64,000 bases of DNA, from assembly GCA_021513695.1 (NCBI GenBank), contig CP084166.1, positions 512,001 to 576,000 of the forward strand. Direction: 5' to 3'. Positions within the stretch are counted from its first letter, which is position 1, and each line of letters begins with the position of its first letter. The notes under the pieces were generated by a model. It saw only the letters and a program-made list of their open reading frames with translations, searched no databases and was not told the DNA's origin. Below are positions 33,671-40,335 of the stretch, one piece after another. A program made the position numbers and the translations under genes. This stretch comes from Candidatus Heimdallarchaeum aukensis. Lineage in GTDB: Archaea; Asgardarchaeota; Heimdallarchaeia; Heimdallarchaeales; Heimdallarchaeaceae.

Positions 33671-33828
33671 AACTGTATTTGTTTTTTTAATTAAATAAAG
33701 GTTATTGTTCCCAAATTTTCAATTTTGGCTTGATTCAATTTTGTATAGGAACAATATTGATAGAACAGTTTATCTTTTCTTCAAATAATAAGGAAGCATT
33801 AAAATATAAGTTCAGAAAAAAAGTAATT

Positions 33829-34242
33829 ATGCAAGAGTCTGCACTTTTTCGATATTTTGACCAATTTGAAAGAACGGACTTGCTATTCATCAATTTCGCA
33901 TTTCTGATTATAATTATCCCAGGACTAATTTTCGGATTGTTAAGTAAAATCATTTGGATGTTTTATGTAGCTTTAGTTGTACTTTTTTTCTTTGTTTGTT
34001 GGAATTGTCTTTACTTCTACATAAAATTCAAACTAAACAAACAAGAAAAAGAACTGCTTAAGACTATTCCAAGTTTTCCTCAACTCGACTTCTGTGATTA
34101 TTGTGGTAAATCATTAGAAAATTCAGCTCCTGCAGTGATTGATAATAATCTAATCATTATTTGCCCTCATTGTGGAAAAGAAAATATTGTTAAATCAGAG
34201 GAAGAAATTGAACAAATAAACAATGAACAAGCAGATTCATAA
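33829..34242 (+). CDS. small membrane protein with C-terminal zinc ribbon
   Basis: Start moved to the ATG at 33829 (MQESALFRYF). Two hydrophobic helices, then CDYCGKSLE...ICPHCGKEN. Its stop lies 17 nt before the next gene. Confidence 0.55.
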   Translation: MQESALFRYFDQFERTDLLFINFAFLIIIIPGLIFGLLSKIIWMFYVALVVLFFFVCWNCLYFYIKFKLNKQEKELLKTIPSFPQLDFCDYCGKSLENSAPAVIDNNLIIICPHCGKENIVKSEEEIEQINNEQADS

Positions 34243-34259
34243 TTTAAGGAGATAAAAAA

Positions 34260-35960
34260 ATGAAAAAAAAAGCGAAAATACTTTTTTTACTAATTGTTTT
34301 CTCAAACTTAGTTTTTGTTTTGGTAACAAATACAAAAAACATTAATGCATTAAAAGAGCCTATTACTAGTGATTCTAATGAATTTCGAGCGTATAGTTTT
34401 GCTGTTCCTTACATGTACACTGATGTTACGATAAAGAAAGATGGCTCGATAGATATTTCTTATACCATTAACTTTACAAATTTTATTTTTGGAAATACTA
34501 TTGACATTATAGATATTGGTTTTCCTAATAAACATTACAATCTTAAAAGTGTTCAAGCTTGGATAGATGGTTATGAGATTACTGATATAAGGGAGAGTGA
34601 ATACATTAGTATAGGAGTAGAGATACATTTAGGTAGTCATTCTATTTTACCTGGTGAGAGCGCTGTATTGGTAGTTAAAGGGAATAATCCTAAAATGGTT
34701 TTTAAAGACGATACCAAAAAAAATTTTGCTAGTTGTGTTTTCAGGCAAACTTGGTTTAGTTCACAATTTGCTTTTGGAGAAACTGAAAGAAGAGTGAGAT
34801 TTTATTTTCCTGAAGATTTAACTGATATGAATGAAGTAGAAAAAAGAGTTTCGGACACTAGTGTAAATTTCACTAGGGAAGCAGATTACGTCGAGTTTAG
34901 CAAAACCAGTACTCCCTATGATAATGATTTTTATGTGGGTGTAGGAATACCTTCTAACTATGTTGATAAAATGTATAGGGAGTTTTGGGTTTATAGATTT
35001 GATGAACTTGTTGCTCAAGCATTGTTTTTCCTTTTCTTCTTTGGATTCTTTGGGATATTTTTCTATGTTTTTTGTATTTATCCCCTAAAAGAAAGAAAAA
35101 GATATCTCCCTCCAACTATAAAGTCGACAGGAGGAGCTGTAAGAATGGGTTTGAAACCTTCCGAAGCAGCTATTATCTTAGAAAAACCTCTTACTCTTGT
35201 AGCTTCTTTAGTTATTTACGAAATGATGTCAGAAGGATTGATTACTGTTAAACAAAAAGAACCCTTAAGATTTAAAGTTGAGATATCTACTAAAGAGAAA
35301 TCCAAATTACCTACTTACCAGAAGCATATTATTAATGGAATTAAGAAAAGAGAAAAATCAGACTTAAAATGGGAAAAGGGAAGTGTTTCTGGTGCTCGAC
35401 CACACGATCCTTTTGACCAAGATTACATAAGAAAAGCGCTTTTATCCTTAATTAGAGAAACAACTATGAAAATGAAAGGGTATAACCTGAAGAAAACAAA
35501 GAAGTACTATAATGAATTAATAGAAAGAGCTTGGCAAGACATGAAAAAAGAAAGACCAGAACTAGAAAATGCTTTCCTATGGATAATGATAGATGAAGAT
35601 TATGACGACAGAATGAAAGATCATTATCATGACTATTATTACCCTTCATGGTATGTTTATCATTATCATACCCATTATTATGGTAGAAATAGAGGAAGAG
35701 GAAGAGATAGGATAACTGGTAGAGAATTAAGAAAATCTGGTTTTAGAAGAACAAAGATAACAGATAGGGGACAGATAATCCCTGGAACAGATTTCAAGCG
35801 AATACAAAAAAATATTGTTAGAAGCCCAAGAAAATTACTTTCGTCAGTAAAATCAAAGACCAGACCTGTTTCTAGCAGCTCGGGAAGAAGTGGAGGGGGA
35901 GGAGGAGGTTGTGCTTGTGCTTGTGCTTGCGCTTGCGCTTGTGCCGGAGGAGGACGATAA
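34260..35960 (+). CDS. DUF2207-like membrane protein with C-terminal GGGGGG-(Cys-Ala)6-GGGR tail
   Basis: AGGAG SD. Signal peptide MKKKAKILFLLIVFSNLVFVLV, ectodomain with YTDVTIKKDGSIDISYTINF, one TM (ALFFLFFFGFFGIFFYVFCIY), PP..GLKPSEAAIILEKP..LVIYEMMSEGLITV. His/Tyr block HYHDYYYPSWYVYHYHTHYY and RG-rich block. Tail SSSSGRSGGGGGGCACACACACACAGGGR. Confidence 0.75.
   Translation: MKKKAKILFLLIVFSNLVFVLVTNTKNINALKEPITSDSNEFRAYSFAVPYMYTDVTIKKDGSIDISYTINFTNFIFGNTIDIIDIGFPNKHYNLKSVQAWIDGYEITDIRESEYISIGVEIHLGSHSILPGESAVLVVKGNNPKMVFKDDTKKNFASCVFRQTWFSSQFAFGETERRVRFYFPEDLTDMNEVEKRVSDTSVNFTREADYVEFSKTSTPYDNDFYVGVGIPSNYVDKMYREFWVYRFDELVAQALFFLFFFGFFGIFFYVFCIYPLKERKRYLPPTIKSTGGAVRMGLKPSEAAIILEKPLTLVASLVIYEMMSEGLITVKQKEPLRFKVEISTKEKSKLPTYQKHIINGIKKREKSDLKWEKGSVSGARPHDPFDQDYIRKALLSLIRETTMKMKGYNLKKTKKYYNELIERAWQDMKKERPELENAFLWIMIDEDYDDRMKDHYHDYYYPSWYVYHYHTHYYGRNRGRGRDRITGRELRKSGFRRTKITDRGQIIPGTDFKRIQKNIVRSPRKLLSSVKSKTRPVSSSSGRSGGGGGGCACACACACACAGGGR
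35910..35945 (+). repeat. hexanucleotide coding repeat (TGY GCN)x6 encoding (Cys-Ala)6
   Basis: TGTGCT TGTGCT TGTGCT TGCGCT TGCGCT TGTGCC, in frame with 34260-35960. Confidence 0.95.
35946..35954 (+). promoter_or_regulatory. Shine-Dalgarno-like GGAGGAGGA for the radical SAM gene, embedded in the terminal Gly codons of the upstream gene
   Basis: GGA GGA GGA CGA TAA A ATG: 7 nt separate the purine run from the ATG at 35962. Confidence 0.5.
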
Positions 35961-35961
35961 A

Positions 35962-37284
35962 ATGCCAAAAGAAGAAAAAGAAGAACAGAAAAAGATGTTT
36001 CACCTAAGAAACGAAGAAACCTTTACTAGAATGCATTTAAGGAAAGAAAAGAAAGGACAAGGAATACTAATAGTTAACGCCAACAGAATCTTTCACCTAA
36101 ATAAAACAGCAACTCAATTCGTTGAATACATAATAGAAGGAAAAAAAGATGAAGAAATAATAAGAAAAATGGTTAACAAATACAATGTTCACGAATCACA
36201 AATAAGAACAGATCTAATGAATCTGAAGATCGCAATAGAAGATATAGTAAATAAACCAGATATTGACCCGGTACAAGAACTGTTTGACGAAGATATGGAA
36301 ATGGAGAGAATGATTTTTTCAGCTCCATTGAGAATGGACTTGGCTATAACTTACAAATGCAATAACAAATGTGTCAAATGCTACGTTGAAGAAAAAAGAG
36401 AAATAAAAGAATTAACAACAGAAGAATGGAAAAAAGTCTTAGATAAACTGTGGGATATAGGTATTCCCCACGTAACATTTACTGGAGGAGAACCCACAAC
36501 AAGAAAAGATTTAGTGAAACTAGTAGAATACGCAGAAGATATAGGCATAGTAACGGGACTAATAACCAACGGAAGAAACCTGAAAGACAAAAAGTTAGTA
36601 GAAGAACTAGTAGCAGCAGGAATAGATCATTTCCAAATAACAATAGAAAGCCATATACCAGAAGTACATGATAAATTAACAGGAGTAAAAGGATCGTGGG
36701 AAGAAACAGTAGAAGGAATAAAAAACGTTGTACCTACACCAGTGTTTATTATGACAAACACAACTCTAGTTCCAGAAAACATAAAAGAAATAGATAAAAC
36801 AATAGAATTTTTAGCTAAGTTGGGAATAGACCACTTCGCAGCAAACGGAATAATAAAAGCTGGAGGAGGAAAAGATGACTCACTAGACTTAACAGTAGAA
36901 GAACTAAACAAAACACTAGATACAATAATGAAGAAAGCTGAAGAAATGAAAATGAGATTTCTATGGTACTCACCAACAAGATATTGTGAATTTAACCCAG
37001 TAAAGAAAGGACTAGGAGTAAAACAATGTACAGCAGGAAATATAGCAATGGCAATAGAACCAGATGGACAAGTAATACCATGCCAAAGCTACTTTGAACC
37101 ACTAGGAAACATATTAACTACTCCATGGAAAAAAATATGGAACCATAAAACAACAAAAAGAATAAGAAAAAGAAAATACTTGCCCCAAGAATGCAAAGGC
37201 TGCCCAGAAAAAGAAATATGCGGAGGAGGATGCCCTCTAAATTATCAAGCGCCAATAACTGTTTGCAGAGACGCTCTTTCGTAA
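35962..37284 (+). CDS. radical SAM / SPASM-domain peptide-modifying enzyme with N-terminal PqqD-like (RRE) domain
   Basis: PqqD-like ILIVNANRIFHLNKTATQFVEYIIEGKKDEEIIRKMVNKYNV...DLMNLKIAIEDI; CNNKCVKC (Cx3Cx2C); FTGGEP. SPASM pattern C-x12-G-x4-C (CTAGNIAMAIEPDGQVIPC), CKGCPEKEICGGGC (Cx2Cx5Cx3C) and a final Cys. Start moved from the ORF-track 35890 to the SD-preceded ATG at 35962. Confidence 0.9.
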   Translation: MPKEEKEEQKKMFHLRNEETFTRMHLRKEKKGQGILIVNANRIFHLNKTATQFVEYIIEGKKDEEIIRKMVNKYNVHESQIRTDLMNLKIAIEDIVNKPDIDPVQELFDEDMEMERMIFSAPLRMDLAITYKCNNKCVKCYVEEKREIKELTTEEWKKVLDKLWDIGIPHVTFTGGEPTTRKDLVKLVEYAEDIGIVTGLITNGRNLKDKKLVEELVAAGIDHFQITIESHIPEVHDKLTGVKGSWEETVEGIKNVVPTPVFIMTNTTLVPENIKEIDKTIEFLAKLGIDHFAANGIIKAGGGKDDSLDLTVEELNKTLDTIMKKAEEMKMRFLWYSPTRYCEFNPVKKGLGVKQCTAGNIAMAIEPDGQVIPCQSYFEPLGNILTTPWKKIWNHKTTKRIRKRKYLPQECKGCPEKEICGGGCPLNYQAPITVCRDALS

Positions 37285-37346: not shown

Positions 37347-37639
37347 TTACATCTTTTTTCCTTTTCCTGTTTTTTCCCATTCACTAAACTTATCTATTAG
37401 TTCGTCAATAGCATGTGTTATCTCTTCAGTGATTTTTTCAACAATAATTAATTTGTCATCTTCAATTCGAATAGACAAAATAGAACCGAGTTCAACCAAC
37501 CATAATTCAAGTTCATTAAGATCTTCAAAACCTAATTTTTCCTGTAAAGTAATTAAAGGTATTTTAGAATTATTAGATAGGACTTTGAATAATTTTTAGC
37601 TCTTTCTATTTCAATATCGCGAGAATCAAAATAGTTCAT
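37347..37639 (-). pseudogene. orphan duplicated 3' fragment of the 40618-43875 gene
   Basis: About 290 bp, near-identical by eye to 40618-40910. It translates to [15 protein letters not shown], loses frame, and ends ...KFSEWEKTGKGKKM*. Its ATG overlaps the TGA of 37636-40335 (ATGA). Confidence 0.8.
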
Positions 37640-40335
37640 TTTTTCTTCCCCTTTCCTTTACGTTCCCACTCACTGAACTGTTTGAGTAAATCATCAATAG
37701 CTGTAGTCATATCTTCAGAAACAAATTCGCCCTCAAATTGTAAGTCAAAGATTACTTCGTCTCTTTCGATTCTATTCGGTACATCCTTTGAATAGATGTA
37801 TAACCATAATTTCATAATCTCTATATCTTCAAAATCTAATAATGGAGAAAGCTTATTTAGACTTATTTTGTCGTAAACTAAACTAATTTTCTTAAGACGG
37901 TCAAGTATTTTATTATTAGTTTTTTTATCATTAATTATTTTTGTTAATTCAGACAATGTTCTATTATCTTCATCCAGTATATCTTTAACTATCGTTACTT
38001 TCTTTGTTGCAAAATCAAAAACTTCTGACCAATTATGTGCAAAAGATGGAAATAGTTTCTTAATTGTAGAAAAAGTATCACCTTTAAAAGAGATTATATA
38101 ATTTAAGAATGATAGCAATTTTTTATAACTAGCTATTATAGGCTTAAACTCTTGATCAGACCACTTTTCAATGAGTTTAGTTAACATTTCTTTTTTGAAA
38201 CTTTGTAAATTTGTAAAATTAATAAGATCAACTAAATAATTTATTTTACTGAGAACGGTATTATTTACGAAATAATCTAATTGATCATATGTTTTGTTTA
38301 ATTGTTCTCTTTCTATTTTTCTTAATTTTCTCTTATTTGAGCTGATAAAAAGGTAATCTTTAAGAAATAGTTTCAATTTTTCAAGATATTTTATAATCTC
38401 CTCAATTGAACTAATAAATAATAGTAAGGAAGAAGTGTTTATGAAAATCTTATCAAATTCTTCATTTAATTTAGTTTGCATATTTATTATCCCTGAGAAA
38501 TTTTCTCTTATCCTTAACCTTATTTTGTGTTCATAAACAAAAAAAAGAGGTAGGATAACAGATATAAGAAGTATAAGAGAAAAACATATTTTTTCAATTG
38601 GTTTAAGATAAATACTCTTTTTTAAAGGATTTTTACCATTTTCTATTTCCCAACCATCGAACAAACCGTCATCATCAGTATCAGAATCTAAAGGGTCAGT
38701 TCCAGCTAGATACTCTTCCAAATTAGTTAAACCATCTCCGTCCAGATCTTCTGATGAATCATATAACAAAGGGTTTAATGAATTACATAGTTCCCATCCA
38801 TCAGGTATGCCATCATCATCAGTATCGGGATCATTAGGGTCAGTTCCAGCTTGATATTCTTCTAAATTAGTTAAACTGTCTTTATCTTTGTCAACATAAG
38901 TGTCATTACTCAAAGGATTCAATAAAAATTCTACTTCCCAACTATCAGGTATGCCATCATCATCAGTATCAGAATCTAAAGGGTCAGTAGAATGCAAGGT
39001 CACTTCTTGAAAATCAGATAAGCCATCATCGTCAGTGTCTGAATCTAAAGGGTCAGTACTGTAAATAGTCACTTCTTGAAAATCAGAAAAGCCATCATCG
39101 TCAGTGTCTGAATCTAAAGGGTCAGTACTGTAAATAGTCACTTCATCTCCATCGTTCAAGCTATCATCGTCAGTGTCTGAATCTAAAGGGTCAGTACTGT
39201 AAATAGTCACTTCATCTCCATCGTTCAAGCTATCATCGTCAGTGTCAGAATCCAAAGGGTCAGTAGAATTCTGATACTCTTCTAAATTAGTTAATCCATC
39301 GCTATCTGGGTCTTCTGCAGAATCATCGATAGTAGTGTTTAAACCATTATTTTCTTCCCATTTGTCAAGCATATTATCTTGGTCTAAGTCTACATGCATG
39401 GGATAAGGATCAAAATTGTTAGCTGAACCATCTATAGGATATGGTCCTGTTCCACTCCAGTCATACCAATAGTTACCTGTTGTACCAGAATAAAATTTAT
39501 TGTATGTCCCATAATCACATGCTTGAGAAGAACCACCTAGATTATTTTTTATTAAGAAGTTTTTTACAAATATTTCATTTTTAGAGCTCTCATTTAGATA
39601 TATACCATAAGAATAACTATTTATTATAATATTGGAAGTAAAAGTATTTTTGTTAGAAACATCAAAGAGAATACCATAATTACTACTATTTACAACAGTA
39701 TTTGAAATAAAAGAATTGTTAGAACTACAAGAAAAAAATATGCCATCATAATAACTATTTGTTATAGTATTGGAAGTAAAAGTATTATTAAAACTAGAAT
39801 GAAGAGACATACCATAATTACTACATATCACAGAGTTGAAGGTAAAAGTATTATTGTTACTACAATAGAGGAAAATACCTACATTATAGCTATTTATAGT
39901 ATTATTAAATACAGTTATTGTTCCATCTGCAACAGAATAAATATAAATACCATAAAATGAACTTGAACCGCCCCCTTCAAGATAACAATCTCGAATAAGA
40001 ATATACTTTGTTGTCCCAGATATCTTTATACCATGAGATGTAGAGTCAGTTATACTATAGTTTTCAATGACATAAGGGTTATCTTTTGTCCCAGAACCAG
40101 GAAAAACAGTAAGATCATCATCAGACTCAATAAGAATAGGCGAATGAACTGTATAAACTTTTTTTACAGCTCTAGTTTCATTTGAATTTACACTAGACAT
40201 TGAATCTATTGTTATTTGATTAGATTGTAGAACCATATTTTCCTCTATTTGAGTCGAAAGGTAAACAAAGAAAACTGTAGTTGTTATTAATATTAGTACT
40301 AAACTTAATTGTATATAAGTTGCTATTCTTTTCAT
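37636..40335 (-). CDS. giant type-I membrane protein A: beta-helix (PbH1/NosD-like) + TSP3-type Ca-binding repeats + TM + cytoplasmic coiled coil + conserved C-terminal module
   Basis: Signal/anchor [26 protein letters not shown]. PbH1-like units ([19 protein letters not shown]...), [17 protein letters not shown], repeated [34 protein letters not shown], then about 330 aa Lys/Glu-rich helical sequence ending [21 protein letters not shown]. Confidence 0.8.
38948..39268 (-). repeat. tandem 69-bp (23-aa) coding repeats, TSP3-like
   Basis: Units [23 protein letters not shown] x2 are almost identical at the DNA level. They are followed by [46 protein letters not shown] and a partial fifth unit. 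Confidence 0.9.

What the first reader, a model, noticed from the sequence alone, without database searches (positions are those of the whole stretch)
33829..37284. Zn-ribbon membrane protein -> DUF2207-like protein with a G6-(Cys-Ala)6-G3R tail -> PqqD/radical-SAM/SPASM enzyme: candidate protein-tail maturation system
Seen: three same-strand genes with 17-nt and 1-nt spacers (33829-34242, 34260-35960, 35962-37284). The last gene has the full hallmark set of a RiPP-type maturase. It has a PqqD-like N-terminal segment of about 70 aa, CNNKCVKC (Cx3Cx2C) and FTGGEP. It also has a complete SPASM pattern (C-x12-G-x4-C, CKGCPEKEICGGGC = Cx2Cx5Cx3C, and a final Cys). I see no short precursor ORF nearby. 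The only Cys-rich element is the extreme C-terminus of the upstream 566-aa membrane protein: SSSSGRS-GGGGGG-CACACACACACA-GGGR-stop. The GGAGGAGGA codons of the terminal GGG double as the Shine-Dalgarno of the rSAM gene, whose ATG begins 1 nt after the stop, so tail and enzyme are translationally coupled. The body of the 566-aa protein looks DUF2207-like: signal peptide, beta-rich ectodomain, one TM, and a GLKPSEAAIILEKP...LVIYEMMSEGLITV motif. Family members I recall end in a plain Gly-rich tail, not a Cys-Ala repeat. Immediately before the tail are an unusual His/Tyr block (HYHDYYYPSWYVYHYHTHYY) and an RG-rich block. Inference: the enzyme modifies the Cys-Ala tail of a full-length membrane protein (thioether cross-links, Cys oxidation or similar) rather than a leader-peptide RiPP. 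I do not recognise this pairing as a described system.
Basis: partly seen in the sequence, partly recalled or inferred. Interest (0 to 1): 0.9.

Follow-up and report, generated by a model that had tools for sequence, protein, structure and literature searches.

The report
Cysteine-alanine tail and its radical-SAM partner
A membrane protein of an Asgard archaeon ends in an invariant run of alternating cysteines and alanines and is encoded immediately before a radical-SAM enzyme; the same pairing is conserved in hundreds of anaerobic bacteria and archaea and I found no description of it, so it probably marks an unknown protein modification.

Summary
The window (Ca. Heimdallarchaeum aukensis) carries three same-strand genes: a small two-TM zinc-ribbon protein, a 566-aa membrane protein ending GGGGGG-(CA)6-GGGR, and a PqqD/radical-SAM/SPASM enzyme starting 1 nt after the stop.

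The pairing is conserved, not a local oddity:
- All 22 full-length homologues, and 133 of 145 profile-search representatives, end in (CA)n[G(CA)n]GGGR. The other 12 are fragments.
- A tail-pattern scan hit only this family, across Chloroflexota, Planctomycetota, Acidobacteriota, Methanomassiliicoccales, Thermoplasmatota and Asgard archaea.
- 75 of 80 informative loci have the enzyme immediately downstream. One tail subtype has it immediately upstream.
- Conversely, 70 of 78 informative loci chosen by enzyme homology have the tail gene just upstream.
- The fuller cassette is Zn-ribbon protein, tail protein, rSAM, often an inactive rSAM paralogue, and a methyltransferase.

No Pfam, NCBIfam or PADLOC family covers it, and text searches found no paper.

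Best reading: the enzyme modifies the cytosolic tail of the intact membrane protein, most likely with thioether cross-links. That chemistry is inferred, not shown. The DUF2207 label is only weakly supported. The ectodomain has an Ost1/M1-peptidase-like fold.

Verdict: a new variant of radical-SAM maturation, of high interest.

The parts
33829..34242 (+). Gene 1: small membrane protein with two predicted TM helices and a C-terminal CxxC-x17-CxxC zinc ribbon (137 aa; 170 aa if the TTG at 33730 is used). It is the probable counterpart of the Zn-ribbon protein found upstream of the tail gene in 63 other loci.
   Evidence: One search gives the ORF. One search gives weak Zn-ribbon Pfam hits. Searches show a ~125-aa 2-TM + Zn-ribbon family upstream of tail genes in 63 loci. 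Searches show that family matching the window ribbon only weakly (12.5 bits), but in the same position and with the same architecture.
34260..35960 (+). Gene 2: the 566-aa tail-bearing membrane protein. Signal/anchor helix aa 2-31, beta-sandwich ectodomain aa 45-240, TM helix aa 247-277, cytosolic helical domain aa 295-470.
   Evidence: ORF. AF2 model (mean pLDDT 77.6; both folded domains about 90). Fold matches. Family size (1109 representatives at E <= 1e-3).
35622..35681 (+). Aromatic His/Tyr/Trp block HYHDYYYPSWYVYHYHTHYY (aa 455-474). It contains the nearly invariant P462 and W464.
   Evidence: Read from the sequence. Conservation from the alignment.
35835..35870 (+). Candidate recognition motif for the enzyme's PqqD/RRE domain: LLSSVKSKTRPV (aa 526-537). 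It aligns with the family consensus F-T-x-x-V-T-x-x-T-N-P-x-P, about 15-25 residues before the Cys repeats.
   Evidence: C-terminal alignment of 122 family members: F 70%, T 76%, P 82%, P 72%. Its role as an RRE site is inferred, not tested.
35892..35960 (+). Gly6 linker, (Cys-Ala)6, Gly-Gly-Gly-Arg and the stop codon (aa 545-566). The Cys-Ala array is 35910-35945. The GGAGGAGGA of the GGG codons (35946-35954) is the Shine-Dalgarno-like site for gene 3.
   Evidence: for the sequence and the repeat. Columns C553-R566 are invariant. Tail statistics. Coupling. The segment is predicted disordered (pLDDT < 35).
35962..37284 (+). Gene 3: the PqqD(RRE)/radical-SAM/SPASM enzyme (440 aa, identical to UJG41272.1). 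PqqD is aa 38-86 (36073-36219). The CxxxCxxC Cys are C133/C137/C140 (36358-36381). The SPASM Cys are C342, C356, C374, C411, C414, C420, C424 and C435 (to 37266).
   Evidence: The cluster Cys C133, C137, C140, C356, C374, C411, C414, C420 and C424 are invariant; C342 and C435 are conserved in at least 90% of sequences.

Best explanation
Genes 1-3 are the minimal form of a widespread, undescribed cassette. A dedicated RRE-radical-SAM-SPASM enzyme matures the cytosolic C-terminal tail, Gly-rich linker-(Cys-Ala)n-GGGR, of an intact single-pass membrane protein.

Proposed sequence of events:
1. The membrane protein inserts with its Ost1/M1-peptidase-like beta-sandwich outside. Its helical domain and disordered tail lie in the cytoplasm.
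2. The enzyme is translated by coupling from the same mRNA.
3. The enzyme's PqqD-like domain binds the conserved F-T-x-x-V-T-x-x-T-(N/R)-P motif just upstream of the tail. This motif would serve as an internal 'leader'.
4. 5'-deoxyadenosyl-radical chemistry then modifies the alternating Cys/Ala core. The most likely outcome is several Cys-S-to-carbon (Ala C-alpha or C-beta) thioether cross-links, as in sactipeptides and ranthipeptides.
5. The result would be a rigid, thiol-poor (or redox/metal-active) appendage that stays on the membrane protein.

In most other genomes an inactive rSAM paralogue (probably a second tail-binding scaffold) and a UbiE-like methyltransferase take part. The small Zn-ribbon membrane protein is a constant fourth partner of unknown role.

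Shown: the conserved tail, the conserved gene pairing in both gene orders, the coupling, the domain content and the cytosolic topology (by the positive-inside rule).
Inferred: that the tail is the substrate (my estimate about 0.8) and that the chemistry is thioether formation (about 0.4).
For: 1. The tail is invariant while the body diverges. All 22 full-length homologues (28-47% identity) end in (CA)n[G(CA)n]GGGR, and 14 of the 38 invariant alignment columns are the tail. Of the best 145 representatives in a 1.84-billion-protein profile search, 133 carry it and the other 12 are fragments. Synonymous sites are saturated: 125 DNA variants among 126.
2. Pairing, from tail to enzyme. A scan of GTDB species genomes for the tail's codons hit only this family. 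In 75 of 80 loci with enough downstream flank an rSAM/SPASM gene follows directly on the same strand. In the tail subtype (CA)2-3-G-(CA)4-GGGR the enzyme plus its paralogue lie directly upstream instead.
3. Pairing, from enzyme to tail. Of 80 metagenome loci chosen only by enzyme homology (43-68% identity), 70 of the 78 informative ones have an alternating-Cys-tail ORF ending just upstream. Bathyarchaeia orthologues pair with a diverged tail, CVCACANCACACACVSCACACAHGGAR.
4. Coupling. The start codon overlaps or abuts the tail's stop in 30 of 67 loci.
5. The enzyme looks competent. CxxxCxxC is present in 80 of 80 and Cx2Cx5Cx3C in 78 of 80. The PqqD domain is above the Pfam cutoff.
6. The nearest solved relative is the thioether-forming SkfB (6efn, 8e-25), followed by PqqE and SuiB.
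7. Topology. There is an N-terminal anchor, then KERKRY directly after TM 247-277, and the tail is disordered. A cytosolic enzyme could therefore reach it.
8. One representative (P0271) fuses the paralogue to the tail protein.
9. The cassette recurs as Zn-ribbon protein - tail protein - rSAM - (PAS) - rSAM2 - methyltransferase.
Against: - There is no biochemical evidence of any modification. Gene adjacency shows a functional link, not an enzyme-substrate relation.
- Sequence similarity does not place the enzyme in any thioether-forming clade. The NCBIfam scores for PqqE (153 bits), NirJ2, AhbD, GeoRSP and SkfB (114 bits) are all similar and all far below their cutoffs.
- Eight SPASM-region Cys suggest fully ligated auxiliary clusters, which is not diagnostic of thioether synthases.
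- A second nearly invariant element, the aromatic Y-x-P-x-W block, could be the real target.
- About 10% of orthologous enzymes (8 of 78) have a methyltransferase but no tail gene within 5 kb.
- A few tail genes lack an adjacent enzyme (L012, L035, L088).
- The window lacks the methyltransferase and the paralogue that most cassettes have.
Confidence: 0.6

Rival explanations
1. The tail is the enzyme's substrate, but the chemistry is not thioether formation. Possibilities include radical epimerisation of alternate residues to give a D/L pattern, oxidation of Cys to formylglycine or a dehydro residue, or C-/S-methylation together with the cassette methyltransferase.
For: The enzyme belongs to no characterised clade. 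rSAM/SPASM enzymes are known to do all of these reactions (established knowledge; reviews PMC5682303 and PMC8326336 are listed but were not opened). A methyltransferase is a cassette member in 63 loci. A strictly alternating sequence is what an every-second-residue chemistry would need.
Against: The anSME recognition motif C-x-(P/A)-x-R is absent: the tail reads C-A-C-A...C-A-G-G-G-R. The window and other single-block-tail archaeal loci work without the methyltransferase nearby. The closest solved relative is a thioether synthase.
Confidence: 0.22
2. The tail is a metal-, Fe-S- or polysulfide-binding (or redox) module that works unmodified. The rSAM enzyme and the methyltransferase act on something else, a small molecule or the aromatic block, within the same pathway. 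The adjacency would then reflect a shared process rather than an enzyme-substrate pair.
For: Six to ten thiols at i, i+2 spacing would line one face of an extended strand, a plausible metal-thiolate site (inference). The Zn-ribbon partner and the His/Tyr-rich block also suggest metal handling. The Y-x-P-x-W motif is conserved. rSAM + methyltransferase pairs exist without a tail gene nearby.
Against: The enzyme carries a peptide-recognition (PqqD/RRE) domain. The pairing holds in both gene orders and is often translationally coupled. A conserved motif lies at leader-like distance from the Cys core. A pseudo-rSAM-tail protein fusion exists. The invariance of the Ala positions and of GGGR is hard to explain by metal binding alone.
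Confidence: 0.12
3. The membrane protein is a scaffold. The tail is modified and then cleaved off to release a small Cys-derived product, either a cofactor or a secreted peptide, as with PQQ, mycofactocin or C-terminal scaffold-peptide pathways.
For: The best NCBIfam score is to PqqE and there is also a hit to the mycofactocin maturase. Both act on residues in the C-terminal part of a precursor that are later excised (established knowledge). The Gly-rich linker could be a cleavage site.
Against: No protease or exporter recurs in the cassette. The scaffold is a large, well-conserved two-domain membrane protein with an ectodomain, which would be wasteful for a single-turnover precursor. The tail is on the cytosolic side.
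Confidence: 0.08
4. The Cys-Ala run is a chance low-complexity or microsatellite product, or a DNA/RNA-level element (for example one that only provides a ribosome-binding site), with no function as a peptide.
For: It is encoded by a 6-nt tandem repeat, and the GGG codons do form an SD-like site.
Against: The peptide is invariant across phyla while its codons vary freely. Zero matches are expected by chance in the window. Spacing to the enzyme's start codon varies from -4 to 86 nt, so the SD role is not general.
Confidence: 0.01

Closest known systems
Sactipeptide/ranthipeptide maturases with an RRE, e.g. SkfB (PDB 6efn), AlbA, CteB, PapB
   Same: N-terminal PqqD-like RRE, a CxxxCxxC radical-SAM core, a SPASM domain with two auxiliary-cluster Cys sets, and a Cys-rich target encoded immediately next to the enzyme. 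SkfB is the best solved-structure match (8e-25).
   Different: Those enzymes act on short leader-core peptides that are cleaved and exported. Here the core is the last ~20 residues of a ~550-aa membrane protein, with no leader cleavage or export genes. All NCBIfam scores are far below the family cutoffs (SkfB 114 vs 300, AlbA 81 vs 850, PapB 73 vs 340).
PqqE/PqqD (PQQ biosynthesis) and MftC (mycofactocin)
   Same: Highest NCBIfam score (PqqE 153 bits). An RRE-dependent rSAM/SPASM enzyme acting within the C-terminal part of its substrate.
   Different: The score is well under the cutoff (381). The Glu/Tyr or Val-Tyr target is absent. There are no PqqB/C/F or MftB/D/E genes. The substrate is a membrane protein.
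QhpD-QhpC and anSME-sulfatase: rSAM/SPASM enzymes that modify proteins rather than RiPP precursors (from established knowledge, not tested here)
   Same: Precedent for an rSAM/SPASM enzyme cross-linking or oxidising Cys in a protein that keeps the modification as part of its function.
   Different: QhpC is a small soluble subunit with Cys-Asp/Glu links. anSME needs C-x-(P/A)-x-R, which the tail lacks. Neither target is a repeat tail on a membrane protein.
Repeat-peptide rSAM systems curated by Haft: ACGX-repeat, CXXX-repeat, SCIFF and GG-Bacteroidales with a 'pseudo-rSAM' partner
   Same: A Cys-containing short-period repeat as the presumed target. An active rSAM occurs alongside a paralogue lacking the cluster Cys. 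TIGR04347 pseudo-SAM/SPASM is among the hits.
   Different: rSAM_ACGX scores 79 bits against a cutoff of 400. The targets there are free peptides. No NCBIfam model hits the tail protein at all.
DUF2207 membrane proteins (Pfam PF09972/PF20990)
   Same: Overall plan of signal peptide, beta-rich ectodomain, TM, cytosolic segment and Gly-rich C-terminus. A weak DUF2207_C match (E = 1e-4 for homologue P0003). UniRef labels the Ornatilinea homologue 'DUF2207 domain-containing'.
   Different: Below the Pfam gathering score in every member tested (13-23 bits vs 33). The Cys-Ala tail and the rSAM partner are specific to this family.
Ost1/ribophorin I and the N-terminal domain of M1 aminopeptidases (fold level only)
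   Different: About 10% identity and no Pfam Ribophorin_I hit. It has a single ectodomain rather than Ost1's larger luminal part. The Asgard OST1 described in PMC11417166 is a different protein.

Membership tests
RRE-dependent radical-SAM/SPASM peptide maturases (RiPP-type) | CxxxCxxC radical-SAM cluster motif and a SAM-binding GGE motif | tested here: met
   CNNKCVKC and FTGGEP are present. Radical_SAM E = 1e-28. The motif is present in 80 of 80 cassette orthologues.
RRE-dependent radical-SAM/SPASM peptide maturases (RiPP-type) | SPASM domain with the Cys set for two auxiliary Fe-S clusters | tested here: met
   SPASM E = 1e-11. C356, C374, C411, C414, C420 and C424 are invariant; C342 and C435 are conserved in at least 90%.
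RRE-dependent radical-SAM/SPASM peptide maturases (RiPP-type) | PqqD-like RiPP recognition element | tested here: met
   Pfam PqqD aa 38-86, 26.7 bits against a cutoff of 23.4. NCBI names the protein 'PqqD family peptide modification chaperone'.
RRE-dependent radical-SAM/SPASM peptide maturases (RiPP-type) | Short precursor peptide (leader + core) encoded nearby | tested here: not met
   There is no Cys-rich short ORF in the window cluster. No recurrent ORF family of 90 aa or more other than the known cassette members appears across loci; ORFs under 60 aa were not searched in the other loci. The only Cys-rich element is the C-terminus of the ~550-aa protein.
RRE-dependent radical-SAM/SPASM peptide maturases (RiPP-type) | Demonstrated enzyme-dependent modification of the target | not testable with these tools
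   This needs anaerobic co-expression or in-vitro reconstitution followed by MS.
Named NCBIfam rSAM/SPASM equivalogs (PqqE, NirJ2, AhbD, GeoRSP, SkfB, MftC, ScmE, ACGX, PapB, AlbA and others) | Whole-protein score at or above the curated cutoff | tested here: not met
   The best is PqqE at 152.7 bits against 381. All 87 hits are below their cutoffs. The same holds for the bacterial orthologue.
DUF2207 (Pfam) | Score at or above the Pfam gathering threshold for DUF2207 N- or C-terminal models | tested here: not met
   DUF2207_C scores 13.3 bits (window), 22.6 bits (P0003) and 13.1 bits (P0009) against a cutoff of 33. There is no hit for four other members tested: P0147, P0013, P0022 and the L028 protein. 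There is no N-terminal model hit.
DUF2207 (Pfam) | Architecture: signal peptide, ectodomain, TM, cytosolic region, Gly-rich C-terminus | tested here: inconclusive
   The architecture is compatible, but it is shared with unrelated families. No profile-profile comparison with a DUF2207 alignment was possible.
Ost1/ribophorin I | Sequence-family membership (Pfam Ribophorin_I) | tested here: not met
   [not shown]
anSME-type formylglycine generation | Target motif C/S-x-P/A-x-R | tested here: not met
   The tail reads ...C-A-C-A-G-G-G-R. No Cys has P/A at +2 together with R at +4.
Anti-phage defence systems (PADLOC) | Specific match of cassette proteins to a defence-system model | tested here: not met
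   The only similarity is generic radical-SAM-core similarity to viperin models (67 bits). Genes 1 and 2 have no hits.

The most novel reading that the evidence does not exclude
The cassette builds a previously unknown protein-anchored structure on the cytosolic tail of an Ost1-fold membrane receptor. This could be, for example, a ladder of lanthionine/sactionine-like thioethers, or a thiolate-based redox or metal cofactor. It would be a new class of protein-derived cofactor or post-translational modification, shared by Chloroflexota, Planctomycetota, Methanomassiliicoccales, Bathyarchaeia and Asgard archaea. The intact membrane protein, not a released peptide, would be the functional end product.
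Probability: 0.25. Interest if true: 0.9.

Novelty: new variant of a known kind. Interest (0 to 1): 0.8.

Why it matters
RRE-radical-SAM-SPASM enzymes are best known for tailoring short, exported peptides. Here one is hard-wired to the last ~20 residues of a conserved membrane protein. The target sequence has stayed unchanged across bacterial and archaeal phyla, which implies a specific and important chemistry.

- The protein family is large: at least 1100 clusters at 50% identity.
- It is absent from Pfam, NCBIfam and the searchable literature.
- At least one cultured carrier exists (Ornatilinea apprima), so the question can be tested directly by mass spectrometry.

The answer would add a new substrate class for radical-SAM maturases, and possibly a new cross-link or cofactor. 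It would also give a first functional handle on a DUF2207-like, Ost1-fold membrane protein family common in anaerobic sediment microbes.

Tried and rejected
- **Family libraries.** Pfam, NCBIfam and PADLOC scans of all cassette proteins gave no specific family for any of them.
- **Literature.** Six full-text searches found nothing on this tail or cassette: Cys-Ala + SPASM; DUF2207; CACACA + radical SAM; Asgard + SPASM + RiPP; CACACACA + C-terminus; SPASM + RRE + membrane protein. These are word matches only and miss subscription journals.
- **Ost1 orthology.** I considered that the protein might be the Asgard ribophorin I/Ost1 orthologue. I rejected this: the similarity is fold-level only, and the published MK-D1 OST1 is a different, larger protein.
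- **Missing cassette members.** The window was searched for the methyltransferase, PAS protein and pseudo-rSAM. None is present in the 64 kb.
- **Other conserved neighbours.** Clustering of neighbour ORFs of 90 aa or more found no protease, transporter or recurrent extra ORF family. The remaining recurrent ORF clusters were alternative-frame shadows of the core genes or lineage synteny.
- **Selenocysteine in the tail.** A single in-frame TGA occurs at a Cys position (L126). It is not seen in any other locus.
- **Tail blocks versus paralogue.** Single-block tails have no pseudo-rSAM in 0 of 8 loci; two-block tails have one in 40 of 60. This is suggestive but confounded by phylogeny, so I did not use it.
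- **Docking model.** An enzyme-tail model could not be made, because no multimer tool is available and chimeric sequences are not accepted.

Full report
**1. Observation**

The three ORFs are exactly as described: 33829-34242, 34260-35960 and 35962-37284, all on the + strand, with spacers of 17 nt and 1 nt.

The 566-aa product ends SSSSGRS-GGGGGG-(CA)6-GGGR. The terminal GGAGGAGGA-CGA-TAA-A-ATG puts an SD-like GGAGG just before the next start codon.

Gene 3 carries these domains and motifs:
- PqqD, aa 38-86, above the Pfam cutoff.
- Radical_SAM, E = 1e-28, with CNNKCVKC and FTGGEP.
- SPASM, E = 1e-11, with CKGCPEKEICGGGC.

The (TGYGCN)6 array is unique in the window; 0 are expected by chance. 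No Cys-rich short ORF lies nearby.

Exact-sequence look-up identifies the enzyme as UJG41272.1 of Candidatus Heimdallarchaeum aukensis. It is annotated only as 'PqqD family peptide modification chaperone'.

**2. The tail is a conserved peptide, not low complexity**

- A homology search with the 566-aa protein returned 26 proteins from Heimdall-, Hod- and Promethearchaeota and from unnamed metagenome bins. Every full-length one (28-47% identity) ends in (CA)n GGGR or (CA)n G (CA)n GGGR.
- In the alignment, 14 of the 38 invariant columns are the tail.
- A profile search of 1.84 billion representatives found 1109 family members at E <= 1e-3. Of the best 145 new ones, 133 have the tail and the other 12 are truncated fragments.
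- Across 126 genomes the last ten codons are 125 different DNA strings encoding one peptide. Selection therefore acts on the amino acids.

**3. Pairing with the enzyme, tested in both directions**

*(a) Starting from the tail.*
- I scanned one genome per GTDB species for the back-translated tail.
- All but two very short, end-truncated tail ORFs (L041, L107) matched the 566-aa protein by phmmer.
- Most loci are Anaerolineae/Chloroflexota. Others are Planctomycetota, Acidobacteriota, Aminicenantes, Hydrogenedentes, Zixibacteria, Sabulitectum, Methanomassiliicoccales, Thermoplasmatota, and Heimdall-, Hod- and Promethearchaeota. The cultured Ornatilinea apprima P3M-1 is among them.
- For tail types (CA)3-5 G (CA)3 GGGR and (CA)5-6 GGGR, 75 of 80 loci with at least 1400 nt downstream have an rSAM/SPASM gene directly downstream on the same strand.
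- In the subtype (CA)2-3 G (CA)4 GGGR the enzyme and a paralogue lie directly upstream wherever upstream sequence is available.

*(b) Starting from the enzyme.*
- 80 metagenome loci were picked only by homology to the enzyme (43-68% identity). Of the 78 informative ones, 70 have an alternating-Cys-tail ORF ending just upstream.
- In one of these an IS200-like gene is inserted between the two genes.
- Eight have the enzyme, and five of those also the methyltransferase, but no tail gene within 5 kb.

*Bathyarchaeia.* Two orthologues (~50% identity) follow a Zn-ribbon gene and a 535-aa homologue ending CVCACA-N-CACACACV-S-CACACA-HGGAR.

*Coupling.* The enzyme's start overlaps or abuts the tail's stop in 30 of 67 loci, and 16 of these are ATGA overlaps.

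**4. The full cassette**

Clustering all neighbouring ORFs gave four recurrent families besides the tail protein:
- The active enzyme.
- A ~385-aa paralogue that keeps a PqqD-like N-terminus but has lost both CxxxCxxC and the SPASM Cys.
- A UbiE/BioC-like methyltransferase, in 63 loci.
- A ~125-aa protein with two TM helices and a Zn ribbon, upstream of the tail gene in 63 loci.

A small PAS-like protein occurs in 18 loci.

The canonical order is Zn-ribbon protein - tail protein - rSAM - (PAS) - rSAM2 - methyltransferase.

Window gene 1 has the same architecture and position as the Zn-ribbon family and matches it weakly. The window lacks rSAM2, PAS and the methyltransferase, as do other archaeal loci with single-block tails.

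No protease or transporter recurs.

**5. The tail protein itself**

The AF2 model has mean pLDDT 77.6. It shows:
- an N-terminal anchor;
- a confident beta-sandwich ectodomain (aa 45-240);
- one TM helix (aa 247-277) followed by KERKRY;
- a confident cytosolic helical domain (aa 295-470);
- the aromatic block;
- a disordered C-terminus.

By the positive-inside rule the tail is cytosolic, so the enzyme could reach it. This is an inference.

Fold comparisons:

This is fold-level similarity only. The published Asgard OST1 is a different protein.

DUF2207_C matches stay below the Pfam threshold, so 'DUF2207-like' is at best a distant relationship.

A conserved motif, F-T-x-x-V-T-x-x-T-N-P-x-P, lies 15-25 residues before the Cys core. 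That is the position where an RRE-binding leader element would lie.

**6. Mechanism**

I propose that the enzyme matures the tail in situ:
1. The RRE binds the upstream motif.
2. Radical chemistry acts on the Cys/Ala core.
3. The product stays on the membrane protein.

Thioether cross-linking is the most likely chemistry, for three reasons. The target is Cys-rich. The enzyme has the RRE-rSAM-SPASM build of sactisynthases and ranthisynthases. Its best solved relative is SkfB.

The enzyme belongs to no curated clade, so the chemistry is open. Rivals are:
- other radical chemistry on the tail;
- an unmodified metal/Fe-S-binding tail, with the enzyme acting elsewhere, for example on the conserved Y-x-P-x-W block;
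- a scaffold whose tail is cleaved off as a small product.

A purely DNA-level or chance origin is excluded.

**7. Comparison with known systems, and novelty**

The system works like an RRE-dependent rSAM/SPASM maturation system and meets that family's enzyme-side criteria. It fails the 'short precursor peptide' criterion. It reaches no NCBIfam equivalog cutoff, and the tail protein hits no NCBIfam model.

The nearest analogies are:
- SkfB-type thioether synthases;
- PqqE and MftC;
- protein-modifying QhpD and anSME (from established knowledge);
- Haft's repeat-peptide systems with pseudo-rSAM partners.

Six literature searches found no description, within the limits of word matching on open-access text.

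I rate it a new variant of a known kind, widespread and experimentally tractable, with interest 0.8.

Noticed in passing
L126 5916-5999 (Bathyarchaeia complete genome CP070659.1): The tail gene has an in-frame TGA exactly where related tails have a Cys codon: ...RCVCA-TGA-ASCACACACVSCACACAGGGAR-stop. The frame is otherwise intact and the rSAM ATG lies 1 nt after the final stop. This could be selenocysteine, a recent nonsense mutation or a sequencing error. It is the only such case among 208 loci.
   Followed up: partly
[not shown]
   Followed up: partly
L132, L141, L157, L158, L164, L184, L187, L202: These loci have orthologous rSAM/SPASM genes (650-700 bits to the cassette profile) with the methyltransferase right after them in 5 cases, but no tail protein or Zn-ribbon gene within 5 kb. 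The tail gene may be elsewhere in those genomes, or the substrate may be different.
   Followed up: partly
P0271 (948 aa) and L025 3-3461: The catalytically dead rSAM paralogue appears fused N-terminally to a tail protein. This may be a Rosetta-stone hint of physical association, but it could also be a read-through gene call in GC-rich DNA.
   Followed up: no
P0186, P0192, P0204, P0211, P0225: These family members (766-838 aa) have a tandemly duplicated ectodomain before the TM helix and keep the normal tail.
   Followed up: no
L191 1-710: An IS200/IS605-like transposase ORF is inserted between the tail's stop codon and the rSAM gene.
   Followed up: no
L098 1-3479; L060: Two tail-bearing paralogues lie in tandem in the same locus.
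   Followed up: no
window 37347-37499 (-): A 50-aa ORF just downstream of the cluster is 50% identical to the C-terminal 44 residues of the adjacent 899-aa protein (...FSEWEKTGKGKK; E = 5e-11). It is probably a duplicated gene remnant.
   Followed up: partly
window 37636-40335 (-): A convergent 899-aa protein combines a NosD/right-handed beta-helix domain, a run of bacterial TSP3 (DxDxDGxxD-type) repeats, a TM segment and a long cytosolic region. No link to the cassette was seen in other loci.
   Followed up: no
L005/L006 368-1753: A selenocysteine synthase gene (SelA) lies about 4 kb upstream of one bacterial cassette. This is probably coincidental.
   Followed up: no
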